DNA of 64,000 nt from Escherichia coli (GTDB taxonomy: Bacteria > Pseudomonadota > Gammaproteobacteria > Enterobacterales > Enterobacteriaceae), in assembly GCF_003019035.1 (NCBI RefSeq), contig NZ_CP027447.1; one strand, 5' to 3'. The position numbers were made by a program, and so were the translations under genes. Shown here one piece after another: positions 41,865 through 48,414 of this stretch; position 1 is the stretch's first letter, and every line of letters starts with the position of its first letter. Under the pieces are notes generated by a model, which worked only from the letters and a program-made list of their open reading frames with translations, was not told the DNA's origin and did not search any database.

Positions 41865-42875
<1,011 letters not shown>

Positions 42876-43511
42876 ATGCGTCTGACAGCAAAACAGGTGA
42901 CATGGCTGAAAGTTTGCCTGCATCTTGCCGGATTGTTGCCGTTTCTCTGGCTGGTCTGGGCGATTAATCACGGTGGACTGGGTGCCGATCCGGTGAAAGA
43001 TATTCAGCATTTTACCGGTCGCACTGCACTGAAATTTTTGCTGGCGACCTTGTTAATCACACCTCTGGCACGCTACGCAAAACAGCCGTTATTGATACGC
43101 ACTCGCCGCCTGTTAGGATTATGGTGCTTTGCCTGGGCGACACTGCATTTAACCAGTTACGCATTGCTGGAGCTGGGCGTGAATAATCTGGCGTTATTAG
43201 GTAAGGAGTTAATTACCCGGCCTTATTTAACGTTAGGTATTATCAGCTGGGTAATTTTGCTTGCGTTAGCGTTCACTTCAACCCAGGCGATGCAGCGAAA
43301 ACTCGGCAAACACTGGCAACAGTTGCATAACTTCGTCTATCTTGTCGCGATCCTGGCCCCAATACATTATCTGTGGTCAGTGAAGATTATTTCACCGCAG
43401 CCACTCATCTACGCTGGGCTGGCTGTACTGCTTTTAGCCTTACGGTATAAGAAGTTGCTTTCCCTTTTCAACCGGTTACGCAAGCAGGTTCACAACAAAT
43501 TATCTCTATAA
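42876..43511 (+). CDS. msrQ: methionine sulfoxide reductase heme-binding membrane subunit
   Basis: 211 aa. Confidence 0.93.
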
Positions 43512-43544
43512 CTTGATATTGCCGACAAAGTACGCGTTATCCCT

Positions 43545-43577
43545 GCCGGATGCGGCGCGAGCGCCTTATCCGGCCCA
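43545..43577. repeat. REP element
   Basis: gccggatgcggcgcgagcgccttatccggcc. Confidence 0.7.
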
Positions 43578-43708: not shown

Positions 43709-43732
43709 TGTTATATGTTACAATATAACATT
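43709..43732 (+). promoter_or_regulatory. Zur box in the zinT promoter
   Basis: palindrome tgttatatgttacaatataacatt versus Zur consensus GAAATGTTATAWTATAACATTTC. Confidence 0.6.
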
Positions 43733-43767: not shown

Positions 43768-44418
43768 TTGGCGATTCGTCTTCATAAACTGGCTGTTGCT
43801 TTAGGTGTCTTTATTGTTAGCGCTCCTGCCTTTTCGCATGGTCATCACTCACACGGCAAACCCTTAACAGAGGTCGAACAAAAAGCTGCTAATGGTGTTT
43901 TTGATGATGCCAATGTACAAAACCGAACACTAAGTGACTGGGATGGAGTCTGGCAATCCGTTTATCCTTTACTGCAAAGTGGCAAACTTGACCCCGTCTT
44001 TCAGAAGAAAGCGGATGCAGATAAAACCAAAACATTTGCTGAAATTAAAGATTATTATCACAAAGGTTATGCGACAGATATCGAGATGATTGGCATTGAG
44101 GACGGCATTGTTGAATTTCATAGAAATAATGAAACAACATCCTGTAAATATGATTACGATGGATACAAAATACTCACCTATAAATCAGGTAAGAAAGGCG
44201 TTCGTTACTTATTCGAATGTAAAGATCCTAAAAGCAAAGCCCCTAAATATATTCAATTTAGCGATCATATAATTGCACCACGAAAATCATCTCATTTTCA
44301 CATTTTTATGGGTAATGATTCACAGCAATCTTTATTAAATGAAATGGAAAACTGGCCAACGTATTATCCCTATCAGTTGAGTAGCGAAGAAGTGGTCGAG
44401 GAAATGATGTCTCATTGA
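43768..44418 (+). CDS. zinT: periplasmic zinc/cadmium-binding protein
   Basis: 216 aa; TTG start with SD ggagga; His-rich N terminus HGHHSHGK. Confidence 0.93.
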
Positions 44419-44506
44419 TTTTTTTGCGCTGACTTCAATTATTTAACAGAACAGTGCCTGGTAGTAACGACAATAATTTACCAAGACAAATAAATAAGAC
44501 AAACTC

Positions 44507-44538
44507 AGACACGCTCATGCTTGAGACGTGTCTTTTTT
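44507..44538 (+). terminator. intrinsic terminator downstream of zinT
   Basis: stem agacacg / cgtgtct followed by a T-run. Confidence 0.6.
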
Positions 44539-45087
44539 ATTATGTCTGTAGAATAAAACTGAGAAAACGGCGAACAATAAATACACAACTCACCAATACA
44601 GACTGGCTGCGCCAATGTCTCCAGGAGCAAGTCATCTGTCATGGTAAAGCTAACCAGAAATATAGGTTAATTTTGGTATTTAAACCTTTTTTACTTGTTA
44701 GTATGATACAAAGGCTTTCAAAAAAGCTGGGAAATTCAACAACTCTTGGAAATTATGGACTTTGTCCCGCGGCTTTAATCTGACGGCCGCGTTCCTTTTT
44801 TTGCTCAATTATTGACCCCTTCTCTACGCAACTTCAGTTCCCACCACCAACTTTGCGGCAGCTTTGTAGGATCAATGTCTAAAAGAATAATGGTGACCGA
44901 TAAGAAAACGACTGAATAATTGCAGATTTTCGCTCGAAACCTTCCTGTCAGATCCATAGCGAATCAAGTGCTGAATGTCACAGTATCGAACAGAAAACAG
45001 TGACGATCTAACCCTTCAAGAATATTCTACGATTGTTCTGTTTAGGAAAAGCAAGGCGGGAAGTCGGGAGATAAGTCATTGATAAAG

Positions 45088-45149
45088 TGGCGGAGAGAGG
45101 GGGATTTGAACCCCCGGTAGAGTTGCCCCTACTCCGGTTTTCGAGACCG
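45088..45149 (-). other. 3-prime 62 nt of tRNA-Ser(CGA) (serU-type): prophage att junction
   Basis: minus strand reads CGGTCTCGAAAACCGGAGTAGGGGCAACTCTACCGGGGGTTCAAATCCCCCTCTCTCCGCCA (anticodon loop to CCA end); tRNA 5-prime half absent, match stops at 45150. Confidence 0.8.
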
Positions 45150-45494
45150 ATGATACAGAGTCGAAAAATCAAAGAGTTAAAAATTTTTCTTGGAATAAAT
45201 GTCTTAAAATCGTACACGAAAAATCAATGAATTACATAAATTAAAGAAGAATATTCCAAGCCTTCTTAAGTCCACCACCTGTTTTCAGGTGTCATTCAGA
45301 CGTGATTTGCCCCATATTGGGAAAGCACGCTTTTTTCTCAGCTTATTCCGTTTTGCCTGTGTGTTGAATAATTCCACTGCAGTTATATAAAATCGGTAAC
45401 GGCTGGAAATCATTCAATACTCGCACTATCGGAAGTTCACCAGCCAACCGCAGCACGTTCTTGCATACGACGTGCTGCGGCATAATCCCAATGA

Positions 45495-46079
45495 TTACTC
45501 CCTGACAGGGTTCGTAGGCCACTCAATATCAGGTGCAGTTGATGTATCAACACGGTTCAGCAACACCCGATACTTCTTCCAGGCTTCCAGCAACGAGTTT
45601 TCTTCCTCCGTTGCAATTTCCAGATCTACAGCATCCTGAAGCGGCGCAATATGCTCACTGGCTACCTGCATCAGGCTTTTTTTTGTTTCTTCCGCCTCCC
45701 GGATCCGGAACAGTTTTTCTGCTTCCGTATCCTTCACCCAGGCTGTGCCGTTCCACTTCTGATATTCCCCTCCCGGCGATAACCAGGTAACATTTTCCGG
45801 TAACGGACCGAGTTCAGAAATAAATAACGCGTCGCCGGAAGCCACGTCATAGACGGTTTTACCCCGATGGTCTTCAACGAGATGCCACGATGCCTCATCA
45901 CTGTTGAAAACAGCCACAAAGCCAGCCGGAATATCTGGCGGTGCAATATCGGTACTGTTTGCAGGCAGACCGGTATGAGGCGGAATGTATGCATCACCTT
46001 CACCAATAAATTCACTGGTTCCGGCCAGCAGATTATAAATTTTTATGGTCCGTGGTTGTTCACTCATTCTGAATGCCAT
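45495..46079 (-). CDS. tfa: tail fiber assembly protein (lambda Tfa-like)
   Basis: 194 aa, matches lambda Tfa as I recall it. Confidence 0.9.
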
Positions 46080-48403
46080 TATGCAAGCCTCACAATATAG
46101 TTAAATGCGATGTTTTTGACGGTGTTTTCCGCGTTACCAGCAGCGTTAACGGTGATGGTGTGTCCGTGTGAACCAATACTGAAAGAATGGGCATGAGCAC
46201 CGATAACAACCGGATGCTGGTGCGCACCAATACCAACTGTATGCGCATGTGCACCGGCACTCACAGCTGTACCGGACAATGAGTGACTGTGGTTGCCCTG
46301 ACTGTCCGTTTTCGATAAATAAGCAATACCCTGTGTGTTGGTTCCTTTAACTGTGGATAAACTTCCTGTAATGGTTGCTGTTCCATACTGACTCCAGCCA
46401 GAACTGTTCATCCTTAAACCACTTGTGTGGGCATGAGCACCCGCGGCCCCTGTTGAACCGCTCAGACTGTGAGCATGAGCCCCCGTGTTATTCGTCGATT
46501 TGGTGCCGTAATCGAAACTGCCTGTTGTTTTCGTCCCGTAATCAAACGACGATGTGGTTTTCGTCCCCAAATCCGTACCGGATGCACTGGCACTGTGGGT
46601 GTGCGACTTAATTCCATCCTGTTCCTGAGACAATACAGCACGACCGCTGGCGGGTTTCCCCTTGATTGTCCAGCCTCGCATATCAGGAAGCACACCCGAT
46701 GGATACGCGACAGCAAGTTTTGGGTAGGCTGATTTGTCAAACGCCTGCCCCTGCATCAGGACGTAGCCAGACGGAACGATATCTGATGGCCACGGGATCG
46801 GCGCACCTGCCGGAAAGGCCGAATTCTCTCCGGCTCCAAGGTATTCAAGAACATCTGCAACAGAATTTTTTGCCAGAATATCCCTGCCAACCTGAGTCAG
46901 TTCAGTCAGGCTGGCGGCATCATTTTCCGCAAAATACGGTAATTTATTTTTCGCCGTGGAAAGCCCTGCCAGCGCCGTCAGTGTCGCATTCTTCGGTTGT
47001 TTACCCGCAAGCGCGTTAGTCATGGTGGTAGCAAAATCTGGATCATTCCCGAGCGCTGCGGCCAGTTCATTCAGCGTATTCAGTGCGTCAGGTGACGCGT
47101 CGATAACATCTGCAATCGCGGCCAGTACAAAAGCGGTGTTCGCAATCTGGGTATTGTTTGTTCCCCTGAGCGCGGTTGGTGCTGTTGGCGTTCCGGTCAG
47201 TGCCGGACTATCCAGTGGGGCTTTTCTGTTCGTTTCATCCATTACCACCTTAACCGCCTTTGGCGTTGCAGCAAGCGTTTCAGACGTGCTGTTGGTTGCA
47301 CTGCTGAGCTGCACTATCCCCTTTCTCGTTGTGTCCGCATCCTCAAGCGCGACAGCTGAAGCTATATCTTCTGCACGTTTTGCCGAGTTTTCTGCACGTA
47401 TTGCCGCCGCTTCTGCCGCACTTTTGCTCTGCGATGCTGATACCGCACTTCCCGCAGCCTCTGTCGCCTTCGTGGATGCCGTTGACGCACTCCCCGCCGC
47501 CGCTGTTTTTGCGTCTGCCGCGGCAGAGGCGCTCCGTTCCGCTGCTGTTTCAGATGACCTGGCATTCGTCTCGGACGTTTTTGCCGCCCTGGCAGAATTT
47601 TCTGCCGCCGTTGCCGAGGAAGCTGCACGACCGGCACTTGATGATGCGTTCGTTTCTGATGATTTTGCTGCCTCTTTTGAGGCCACCGCATCTCGTGCTG
47701 AAGTGGCGGCCTCTGACGCTTTAGTGGTCGCGGTGGAGGCAGACGTGGCGGCTGATTGTTGTGACGCTGCAGCATTCGTTTCTGACGTTTTCGCCGCACC
47801 GGCACTGGTGGCCGCCGCGCTTTTTGAGGACTCTGCAGCGGCAGCACTTTTTTCCGCTTCAGTGGCCTTTGTTGATGCCGTTCCTGCGCTGGAAGACGCT
47901 GACTGAGCCGACGAAGCGGCCTGTCCGGCTGACGTGCTGGCTGCGCGTGCTGAGCCTGCAGCATCAGTCGCATGGGTTGCCGCCTCACGGGCTGATGTGC
48001 TGGCATCGCCGGCTGACTTCTTCGCGGCTGCCGTGTTCTGTGCCACCACGGACGCGTTACGCGCCACCTCTTCCACCATCAGTTCAAAACGGCGCAGTGC
48101 CTCAGGACGGGCATCATCCTCCGTCATGGCACCGAGAAAATCATTCAGCGTACCGGGTCGGGAATCTTCATACACGGTGATGGTCCCGGCATGTGACGGC
48201 GGGAATCCTTCCACCAACAGAATAACGCTGTACTGACCGTACTCAACGTCCATGCTGTAACGCCCGGCTTCATCCGGATTTTCTGAGGCCAGCGTGTTCA
48301 CCACCACCGTGGTACTGTTACGTTTTGCTTTCAGCTGGATTGTGCAGTTCTGTACCGGTTTTCCTGTGCCGTCTTTCAGTACACCTGAAATCTTTACTGC
48401 CAT
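46079..48403 (-). CDS. stf: side tail fiber protein (lambda Stf-like, full length)
   Basis: N terminus [20 protein letters not shown]; Ala/Ser-rich repeats; C-terminal GAHAH repeats; ATG at 48403 (ORF-track start 48409 is GTG). Confidence 0.9.
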
Positions 48404-48414
48404 ATTCACCCCAC

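What the first reader, a model, noticed from the sequence alone, without database searches (positions are those of the whole stretch)
44419..45087. zinT-to-att region lacks an expected yodB; possible small transcript
From memory, K-12 order is zinT-yodB-serU. Here the 670 bp between zinT and the tRNA-Ser fragment has no ORF that could encode a ~176-aa cytochrome b561; the only long ORF (44454..44783) runs through the zinT terminator and looks non-coding. The region does contain a second terminator-like hairpin (cgcggc...gccgcg plus T-run, 44768..44802) preceded ~90 nt upstream by a sigma-70-like TTTAAA-17-TATGAT match (44679..44707), compatible with a ~90-nt small RNA. AT-rich DNA gives such promoter matches by chance, so this is weak.
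Basis: inference. Interest (0 to 1): 0.4.

Follow-up and report, generated by a model that had tools for sequence, protein, structure and literature searches.

The report
Unannotated phage-derived small RNA beside serU
The stretch between zinT and the tRNA-Ser fragment lacks yodB, as it does in about four in ten E. coli genomes, and it holds a conserved, never-named gene for a small RNA of about 89 nt that is related to small-RNA genes of lambda-like phages and whose 3' end and Hfq binding already appear in published K-12 data.

Summary
All four observations are real. yodB is absent (tblastn finds nothing). This is a common natural allele, not a lesion. The 669-bp zinT-serU spacer is full length in 2281 of 5420 complete E. 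coli genomes, and E. albertii has the same yodB-less type.

The hairpin plus U-run (44768-44802) and the TTTAAA-17-TATGAT match (44679-44707) belong to one conserved module, about 44645-44805. It is at least 95% identical in 5417 of 5426 E. coli genomes and is unannotated, including in K-12.

Published K-12 data place an RNA 3' end exactly at the U-run (Term-seq, 2043181 +). An Hfq CLASH hybrid ends at the same base. Hfq RIL-seq chimeras are labelled 'yodB.serU.IGR'.

The module has homologues in 117 viral contigs and about 200 E. coli prophages. These lie between Q/tRNAs and the holin gene, antisense to the late operon. Across 46 distinct versions the -35, the -10 and the +1 G are conserved, the middle varies, and two helices covary.

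Best reading: an independently transcribed, Hfq-binding sRNA of about 89 nt, of lambdoid-phage origin, fixed next to the serU att site. The 5' end and the targets are not established. It is a new member of a known kind, of moderate interest.

The parts
43768..44418 (+). zinT (metal-binding protein ZinT), left neighbour
   Evidence: ORF list. RefSeq annotation of the identical locus in strain SCU-301.
44507..44539 (+). zinT intrinsic terminator (hairpin 44507-44533 plus T-run)
   Evidence: Folding of 44419-44560 gives z = -3.35. The hairpin alone is -15.3 kcal/mol. E. albertii and K-12 keep a hairpin at the same distance from the zinT stop, and the E. albertii sequence has changes on both arms, read by eye as compensatory.
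44419..44640 (.). Allele-specific 222 bp that stand where K-12-type genomes have 995 bp containing yodB
   Evidence: Alignment to K-12. blastn and tblastn. Full-length spacer in 2281 of 5420 genomes. Alignable to E. albertii.
44645..44707 (+). Conserved upstream block and promoter of the small-RNA module: -35 TTTAAA at 44679-44684, 17-bp spacer, -10 TATGAT at 44702-44707
   Evidence: Promoter scan. The block is homologous to phage copies. In 46 distinct versions the -10 is invariant at TAnnAT and the spacer varies.
44714..44802 (+). Predicted sRNA of about 89 nt. It has a 5' hairpin (44714-44727), a single-stranded variable middle (44728-44756), a small hairpin GGAC-UUU-GUCC (44757-44767), a terminator stem-loop (44768-44791) and a U-run (44792-44802).
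   Evidence: Fold. Covariation counts and RNAalifold. The covariance model hits window 44678-44812 at 111.6 bits. K-12 Term-seq 3' end at 2043181 (+), which corresponds to the end of the U-run. Hfq CLASH fragment. The 5' end is inferred, not measured.
44810..45087 (.). 278 bp downstream of serU that a few serU-integrating lambdoid phages also carry next to attP
   Evidence: 98-99% identity to phages mEp332, ev099 and PhiR70_1 and to three records of the plasmid collection. The boundary at 44810 is seen in the alignment. The part nearest serU is 84% identical in E. albertii.
45088..45149 (-). Displaced 3' part (62 nt) of tRNA-Ser(CGA) serU, which is the attL core
   Evidence: Identical to K-12 serU up to 45149 and then identical to phage DNA. 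ARAGORN finds no intact tRNA in the window. The same 62-nt pseudo-tRNA is annotated in the prophage SerU-LTIIb.
45150..48409 (-). Start of the lambdoid prophage (tail-fibre assembly gene tfa 45495-46079, side tail fibre 46079-48409)
   Evidence: ORF list. The same junction is present in 603 genomes, annotated as tail fibre assembly protein. A complete example at serU is in strain RM8082.

Best explanation
Window 44645-44805 is a self-contained small-RNA gene. A sigma-70-type promoter (-35 at 44679-44684, -10 at 44702-44707) would start transcription at about 44714. The RNA has four parts: a 5' stem-loop, a single-stranded region of about 30 nt, a small GGAC/GUCC hairpin, and a Rho-independent terminator ending in a U-run at 44802. 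That makes about 89 nt. The 3' module (hairpins plus poly-U) binds Hfq. The single-stranded middle is the likely seed for base-pairing with mRNAs in trans.

The gene descends from a family of small-RNA genes of lambdoid phages. Those genes sit between Q/tRNAs and the holin gene, antisense to the late operon. A copy became fixed beside the serU phage-attachment site before E. coli diversified, and E. albertii later lost the transcribed part.

The missing yodB is a separate, ordinary presence/absence polymorphism immediately to the left of this gene.

Shown: the sequence features, their conservation, the covariation, and, in K-12, the 3' end and Hfq association. Inferred: the promoter activity and 5' end, the trans-acting mechanism, the targets, and the direction of transfer (phage to chromosome).
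For: Conservation within E. coli:
- Window 44670-44815 is at least 95% identical in 5417 of 5426 complete genomes, in both yodB+ and yodB- backgrounds.
- It is unannotated, including in NC_000913.3.

Experiments in K-12, taken from the literature:
- Term-seq gives a 3' end at 2043181 (+), class 'orphan', in LB at OD 2.0 (PMC7815308).
- Hfq CLASH gives a hybrid fragment 2043157-2043181 (+) (PMC7213987).
- Hfq RIL-seq has a node 'yodB.serU.IGR' with 39 and 33 chimeric fragments. It is always second in the chimera (SIC = 1 - 1/k) and has a U-tract of 6 (PMC8175672).

Homologues:
- Phage vB_EcoS-683R6 and prophage SerU-LTIIb carry one.
- About 200 E. coli genomes carry a phage-type copy.
- 117 IMG/VR viral contigs match.

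Alignment of 46 distinct versions:
- The -35 TTTAAA, the -10 TAnnAT and the G at the predicted +1 are conserved, while the spacer and the RNA middle vary.
- 95.9% of cells are paired, against 39-53% when the partners are slid.
- Covariation: UA 23 / CG 21 in the 5' hairpin and CG 32 / UA 14 in the terminator.
- RNAalifold finds the same three helices on its own.
- G-U pairs (for example UG in 23 sequences) fit the + strand only.

Coding and orientation:
- The only ATG in the RNA opens a 7-codon ORF and is ACG in many homologues.
- The phage copy and the chromosomal copy have the same orientation in a serU prophage.
- E. albertii keeps the promoter part but lacks the body.
Against: - No TSS or 5'-end data could be reached. 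The Thomason 2015 paper is not held, and other supplements held nothing.
- The promoter match alone is at chance level.
- In K-12 the same hairpin is the first credible terminator after yodB. So the K-12 3' end and the Hfq reads could come from a yodB 3' UTR.
- The Term-seq signal is weak (2241 reads) and appears in one of three conditions.
- The RIL-seq authors' classifier scored the node 0.010 and 0.046, below their 0.1 cut-off.
- The RIL-seq label carries no strand.
- Predicted pairing with the inferred partner ompF is no better than for shuffled sequences.
- There are no expression data for a yodB-less strain.
- Part of the invariance in the family alignment is forced by the search pattern used to collect it.
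- The direction of transfer rests on diversity and distribution only.
Confidence: 0.65

Rival explanations
1. The hairpin is simply the terminator of the upstream gene: yodB in K-12, or zinT read-through in this strain. It also shields serU from convergent transcription. The Hfq-bound fragments would then be 3' UTR ends or decay products, and the promoter-like hexamers would not be used.
For: In K-12 no other obvious terminator lies between the yodB stop (2042898) and 2043181 (reading). The 3' end class 'orphan' includes long 3' UTRs. The promoter score is at chance level. The RIL-seq classifier score is low.
Against: Homologues in phages have no yodB or zinT upstream. The module there points away from the adjacent holin gene, yet it keeps the same -35 and -10 spacing, the invariant TAnnAT and a 5' hairpin starting about 7 nt after the -10. 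A bare terminator would not need a conserved 5' hairpin with covariation 50 nt upstream. In this window zinT has its own strong terminator at 44507-44539.
Confidence: 0.2
2. The module is an inert fossil of an old prophage. Its sequence is kept only by low divergence within E. coli, and any transcription is noise without function.
For: It is restricted to E. coli, and E. albertii has lost the body. Identity within E. coli (about 98-100%) is not clearly above that of the flanking spacer (95-99%). No target has been validated.
Against: It is present in 5417 of 5426 genomes with no decay. A defined 3' end and Hfq association appear in three independent data sets. In RIL-seq it always takes the chimera position typical of sRNAs.
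Confidence: 0.12
3. The region encodes a small protein: the 109-aa ORF at 44454-44783, the 36-aa minus-strand ORF at 44698-44808, or the ATG at 44754.
For: ORFs of these sizes exist. The phage record annotates a hypothetical protein that starts at the homologous ATG.
Against: There are no Pfam matches. The 109-aa ORF crosses the zinT terminator and the allele junction. The ATG opens only 7 codons here and is ACG in many homologues, and the sequence after it falls into three unrelated types.
Confidence: 0.02

Closest known systems
Hfq-dependent base-pairing sRNAs of enterobacteria, including ones of prophage origin such as DicF
   Same: About 90 nt. Own promoter-like elements. A 5' stem-loop, a single-stranded middle, and a Rho-independent terminator with at least 6 U that Hfq binds. 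Second position in RIL-seq chimeras. Phage ancestry.
   Different: No mapped 5' end, no validated target and no name. Few interactions were recorded. It is restricted to E. coli.
Convergent sRNA pairs at the lambdoid 'moron' site downstream of PR', including the anti-sRNAs AgvB and AsxR (Tree et al. 2014, PMC4104026)
   Same: The phage homologues sit in the same slot, between Q/tRNAs and the lysis genes. They are antisense to the late transcript and convergent with an STnc100-like element. The 3' part is conserved and the 5' part varies.
   Different: No match to Rfam AgvB, AsxR, Esr41 or STnc100 on this strand. The predicted RNA is about 89 nt with about 42 nt before the conserved 3' part, not 51-60 nt with a 14-18 nt variable 5' end. 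An O157:H7 genome has only the chromosomal copy.
PasA/PasC prophage sRNAs of EPEC (Pearl Mizrahi 2021, PMC8550237; Zhu et al. 2026 preprint)
   Same: They lie directly next to the holin-lysozyme operon of lambdoid prophages, as the phage copies of this family do.
   Different: The sequence in the PasC slot of phage 2B8 does not align convincingly and is not hit by the covariance model. Pas sRNAs are reported absent from K-12, whereas this module is in nearly all E. coli.
3' UTR-derived sRNAs (for example CpxQ and SdhX)
   Same: In K-12 the RNA shares the likely terminator of yodB and lies 283 nt after its stop codon.
   Different: In this window there is no upstream gene to derive it from, and the phage homologues are free-standing.

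Membership tests
Hfq-dependent trans-acting sRNA | Rho-independent terminator with a 3' U-run that yields a defined 3' end | tested here: met
   A 7-bp GC-rich stem plus UUCCUUUUUUU. K-12 Term-seq 3' end at 2043181 (+) at the U-run.
Hfq-dependent trans-acting sRNA | Association with Hfq in vivo | tested here: met
   From published K-12 tables only: a CLASH hybrid 2043157-2043181 (+), and the RIL-seq node yodB.serU.IGR with 39 and 33 chimeric fragments. Not tested in this strain.
Hfq-dependent trans-acting sRNA | Own transcription start (a primary transcript) | tested here: inconclusive
   The -35, the -10 and the +1 G are conserved across 46 versions. The hexamer score alone is at chance level, and no TSS data set could be read.
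Hfq-dependent trans-acting sRNA | Base-pairing with defined mRNA targets through a seed | tested here: inconclusive
   The RIL-seq partner is inferred to be ompF from matching table values. The CLASH partner is mreC. Duplex prediction with ompF is no better than with shuffled sequences.
Hfq-dependent trans-acting sRNA | Non-coding | tested here: met
   The longest in-RNA ORF is 7 codons. Its ATG is not conserved. There are no Pfam hits.
Anti-sRNA group AgvB/AsxR (Rfam RF02702, RF02703) | Match to the family covariance models | tested here: not met
   cmscan at E up to 10 gives no AgvB or AsxR hit on the module strand in the window or in phage L090. There are none at gathering score in 15 phage loci.
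Anti-sRNA group AgvB/AsxR (Rfam RF02702, RF02703) | Location at the lambdoid moron site, antisense to the PR' transcript | tested here: met
   True of the phage homologues. The chromosomal copy itself lies outside any prophage.
Pas sRNAs (PasA/PasC) | Sequence or structure similarity to PasA/PasC | tested here: not met
   The holin-proximal sRNA slot of phage 2B8, the paper's PasC/PasD representative, does not align convincingly and is not found by model R1. The PasA and PasC sequences themselves were not available.
yodB (cytochrome b561 homologue) | An ORF homologous to YodB between zinT and serU | tested here: not met
   tblastn gives no hit. The alignment shows that the yodB segment is absent.
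3' UTR-derived sRNA | Co-transcription with, or processing from, an upstream mRNA | not testable with these tools
   This needs RNA data. In this window the nearest upstream gene, zinT, has its own terminator.

The most novel reading that the evidence does not exclude
The chromosomal RNA is a domesticated phage antisense RNA that still acts on phages. Its 3' part of about 45 nt is nearly identical to that of the phage copies, and those copies lie antisense to the late transcript just upstream of the holin gene. The host RNA could therefore pair in trans with the late mRNA of any incoming or resident lambdoid phage that carries the module. With Hfq, this could alter holin expression, lysis timing or induction. 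That would be a core-genome sRNA serving as a built-in modulator of a class of prophages, alongside its host targets.
Probability: 0.08. Interest if true: 0.65.

Novelty: new member of a known kind. Interest (0 to 1): 0.48.

Why it matters
E. coli K-12 has the most intensively catalogued sRNA set of any bacterium. Even so, this locus is unnamed in the K-12 RefSeq record and absent from Rfam 15, and it appears only as anonymous rows in three supplementary tables. Linking those rows to a conserved promoter, a covarying structure and a phage gene family turns a weak candidate into a testable gene. It also gives a clear example of how a phage 'moron-site' sRNA can become part of the core genome next to a tRNA attachment site. 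On the practical side, the absence of yodB here should not be read as a deletion caused by the prophage.

Tried and rejected
- Rfam scans of the window region and of the phage homologues gave no family for the module.
- Looking for the module in other genera through 80 mtfA loci gave nothing. Only E. coli has the 447 bp, and E. albertii has only the 129 bp nearest serU by blastn. Model R1 found nothing in E. albertii, cryptic-clade Escherichia, Salmonella or Citrobacter loci.
- TSS look-ups failed. Thomason 2015 is not held. The Cappable-seq supplement has no entry. The Rend-seq paper holds no supplements. The ROSE supplement has no entry.
- Melamed 2016 has no supplements held.
- 'yodB.serU' appears in no main text. 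'yodB' together with sRNA and Hfq gives nothing relevant. The sequence motif appears in no relevant paper.
- Duplex prediction against ompF with the whole RNA and with the middle region was no better than with shuffles.
- I considered a MITE-like insertion with a target duplication (a CCTTTTTT repeat flanking the E. albertii gap). I rejected it because E. albertii keeps the upstream promoter part, so the gap is a deletion of the RNA body.
- I looked for phage relatives of the 278-bp segment near the phage module. There were none beyond the attP-flank copies.
- The Stx1d prophage of RM8082 at serU has no phage-type copy of the module, and its integrase lies 27 bp from serU with no 278-bp stretch annotated between them.

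Full report
**Context.** The window is E. coli chromosome. It carries msrP (41871-42875), msrQ (42876-43511) and zinT (43768-44418), then a 669-bp spacer (44419-45087). After that come 62 nt identical to the 3' part of tRNA-Ser(CGA) serU on the minus strand (45088-45149), followed at once by lambdoid prophage DNA with tfa and stf on the minus strand. ARAGORN finds no intact tRNA in the window. This end is therefore attL, and the rebuilt serU lies beyond the window, as in the complete example in strain RM8082.

**The missing yodB.** tblastn with K-12 YodB finds nothing in the window.
- Aligned to K-12, the two sequences are identical through the zinT stop codon and then differ. K-12 has 995 bp that include yodB, and the window has 222 bp (44419-44640). 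From 44641 to serU they are 96% identical.
- This is not a lesion made by the prophage. The whole 669-bp spacer is found full length in 2281 of 5420 complete E. coli genomes, with an intact serU and no prophage in the examples inspected. The rest, including K-12 and O157:H7, match only from 44641 on.
- E. albertii, the only other species in which zinT adjoins serU among 80 mtfA loci, has the yodB-less type, and its spacer aligns with the window's 222 bp.
- A published ST410 study uses yodB presence or absence as a clone marker (PMC10786849).
- Whether yodB was gained or lost is not settled. The E. albertii state suggests gain, which is an inference.
It is not a gene.

**The hairpin and the hexamers.**
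- The hairpin has 7 bp, six of them G-C, with a 10-nt loop, and is followed by UUCCUUUUUUU. The stock scan skips it only because of its loop limit.
- A relaxed scan finds 35 such sites in the window against 1.75 in block shuffles, so a site of this kind is unlikely to arise by chance.
- The hexamer match alone is at chance level.

**Conservation.** Window 44670-44815 is at least 95% identical in 5417 of 5426 complete E. coli genomes, in both yodB+ and yodB- backgrounds. It is annotated in none of the records looked at, including NC_000913.3. The 447 bp next to serU have no match in other Enterobacteriaceae. In E. albertii only the 129 bp nearest serU match by blastn.

**Published K-12 data.** Window 44641 corresponds to K-12 2043021, so the U-run ends at 2043181.
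- Term-seq (Adams 2021) lists a 3' end at 2043181 (+), 2241 reads, class 'orphan', in the LB OD 2.0 sheet. No such entry turned up in the LB 0.4 or M63 sheets.
- Hfq CLASH (Iosub 2020) lists a hybrid whose intergenic half is 2043157-2043181 (+), ATCTGACGGCCGCGTTCCTTTTTT, joined to mreC.
- The Hfq RIL-seq data of Melamed 2016, as tabulated by Bar 2021, contain a node 'yodB.serU.IGR' with 39 fragments and one partner in exponential phase, and 33 fragments and two partners in a second condition.
- The RIL-seq SIC values (0 and 0.5, equal to 1 - 1/k) mean that this RNA was always second in the chimera, which is the position typical of sRNAs. The U-tract is 6.
- The single exponential-phase partner has k = 15 and SIC 0.094324, identical to the ompF row, so I infer ompF.
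- The authors' classifier gave the node 0.010 and 0.046, below their 0.1 cut-off, so it was never called an sRNA.
- No main text mentions it.

**Phage relatives.** A sensitive search of phage genomes gave a 46-bp match to the hairpin in phage vB_EcoS-683R6.
- Reading the locus shows homology over the whole module. The upstream block AAGACTTATC..AGGT.AATTT..ATTTAAACC and the -10 region are similar. A 5' hairpin of different sequence sits at the same place, the middle has diverged, and ATGGACTTTGTCCCGCGG..TTAATC.GACG.CCGCG plus a T-run follows.
- Phage-type copies occur in the prophage SerU-LTIIb, in about 200 of 5426 E. coli genomes and in 117 IMG/VR viral contigs.
- In every case inspected they lie between the Q/tRNA region and the holin gene, on the strand opposite to the late genes. 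This is the 'moron-site' slot where Tree et al. 2014 described convergent prophage sRNAs, and where PasA and PasC are reported to lie next to holin.
- No Rfam family covers the module.
- Model R1, built from the family, does not hit phage 2B8, which is the PasC/PasD representative.
- An O157:H7 genome has only the chromosomal copy.

**Family alignment.** The alignment holds 46 distinct versions: 40 phage-type and 6 chromosomal-type, the latter including the window and K-12 (A7).
- The -35 TTTAAA(CC) is conserved, and the -10 is invariant at TAnnAT. The 17-bp spacer varies.
- The G at the predicted +1, which is the first base of the 5' hairpin, is invariant.
- For the structure I specified, 95.9% of cells pair, against 39-53% when the partners are slid. 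Clean covariation is seen at UA 23 / CG 21 in the 5' hairpin and CG 32 / UA 14 in the terminator.
- RNAalifold predicts the same three helices.
- The G-U pairs fit only the + strand.
- Caveat: the stretch GGACTTTGTCCCGCGG..TTAATC is invariant by construction of the search pattern. The informative columns lie outside it.
- The middle region differs between the chromosomal version (GGGAAAUUCAACAACUCUUGGAAAUUAU) and the phage versions (for example CAAUACUUAUUAUUCUUCA), as expected for a seed that retargets.

**Origin.** The evidence favours transfer from phage to chromosome.
- The phage versions are diverse and hold a fixed place in phage genomes, whereas the chromosomal version is almost uniform and limited to E. 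coli.
- It lies about 300 bp from a phage attachment site. It has the orientation that a phage copy has in a serU prophage.
- E. albertii keeps the upstream part (..GTATTTAAACC..TTAGTTCATAG) but lacks the RNA body. This points to loss in E. albertii and to an origin before the two species split.
- I therefore read the module as a fixed remnant of an old prophage, which is an inference.
- The adjoining 278 bp (44810-45087) are also carried by phages mEp332, ev099 and PhiR70_1 next to attP. They have no relatives near the phage copies of the module.

**Mechanism and confidence.** Most likely (about 0.65) the module makes an independently transcribed, Hfq-binding sRNA of about 89 nt that pairs with mRNAs through its single-stranded middle.
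- The main rival (about 0.2) is that the 3' end and the Hfq reads come from the yodB or zinT 3' UTR and the promoter is unused. The free-standing phage homologues, with conserved promoter geometry and a covarying 5' hairpin, argue against this.
- The targets are open. Pairing with ompF is no better than with shuffled sequences.

**Verdict.** The locus is a new member of a known kind, a prophage-derived Hfq-associated sRNA. Interest is moderate: an unnamed core-genome sRNA candidate in E. coli, with a traceable phage ancestry and direct experiments that could test it.

Noticed in passing
window 45538-45736 (-): A full-length match to Rfam IS009 (RF02111; 223 bits against a gathering score of 117) lies inside the prophage tail-fibre-assembly gene tfa (45495-46079). 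This 'sRNA family' overlaps coding sequence here.
   Followed up: no
window 44810-45149; L085 2051-2328; L086 2501-2778: Phages mEp332, ev099 and PhiR70_1, and three records of the plasmid collection, carry the 278 bp that lie downstream of serU in the chromosome. In the phages these are contiguous with the 62-nt tRNA part, which gives about 340 bp of identity between attP and attB. In mEp332 and ev099 an AraC-family regulator gene and a transposase gene lie beside this stretch, and in ev099 an integrase gene is annotated beyond them. The Stx1d prophage at serU in RM8082 differs: its integrase gene lies 27 bp from serU.
   Followed up: partly
L090 1572-1610 (+) and 1629-1825 (-): Phage vB_EcoS-683R6 has a second tandem unit (GGACTTTGTCCC, another hairpin, T7) right after the first terminator. 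It also has a sub-threshold STnc100-like match (22.9 bits, E 0.009) converging on the other strand.
   Followed up: no
window 43709-43730: A near-palindrome, tgttatatgttacaatataaca, lies upstream of zinT. From memory it resembles a Zur box, which would fit zinc-regulated zinT. This was not tested.
   Followed up: no
window 43510-43575: A partial naRNA4/REP-like match (37 bits, below gathering score) lies on both strands between msrQ and zinT.
   Followed up: no
L005, L007: Two metagenome-assembled genomes, labelled Bacteroides sp. and Bacillota bacterium, contain contigs that are 99-100% E. coli yodB-serU-mtfA. These look like contaminant contigs in the MAGs.
   Followed up: no
L008 637-3509: In Escherichia sp. 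E1V33 the genes next to serU look like shiA (a transporter) and amn rather than zinT. In that locus and in the E. whittamii and SCPM-O-B-8794 loci no zinT, yodB or msrQ is found within 4 kb of serU. The zinT-serU adjacency is therefore limited to E. coli and E. albertii among the 80 loci.
   Followed up: partly
L002 4488-5669; L003 4488-5669: In the two yodB-less genomes inspected, a tyrosine integrase gene follows asnT directly, whereas K-12 has yeeJ there. The ST410 paper pairs yodB absence with fyuA presence, which suggests that the yodB-less allele often travels with an asnT island.
   Followed up: no
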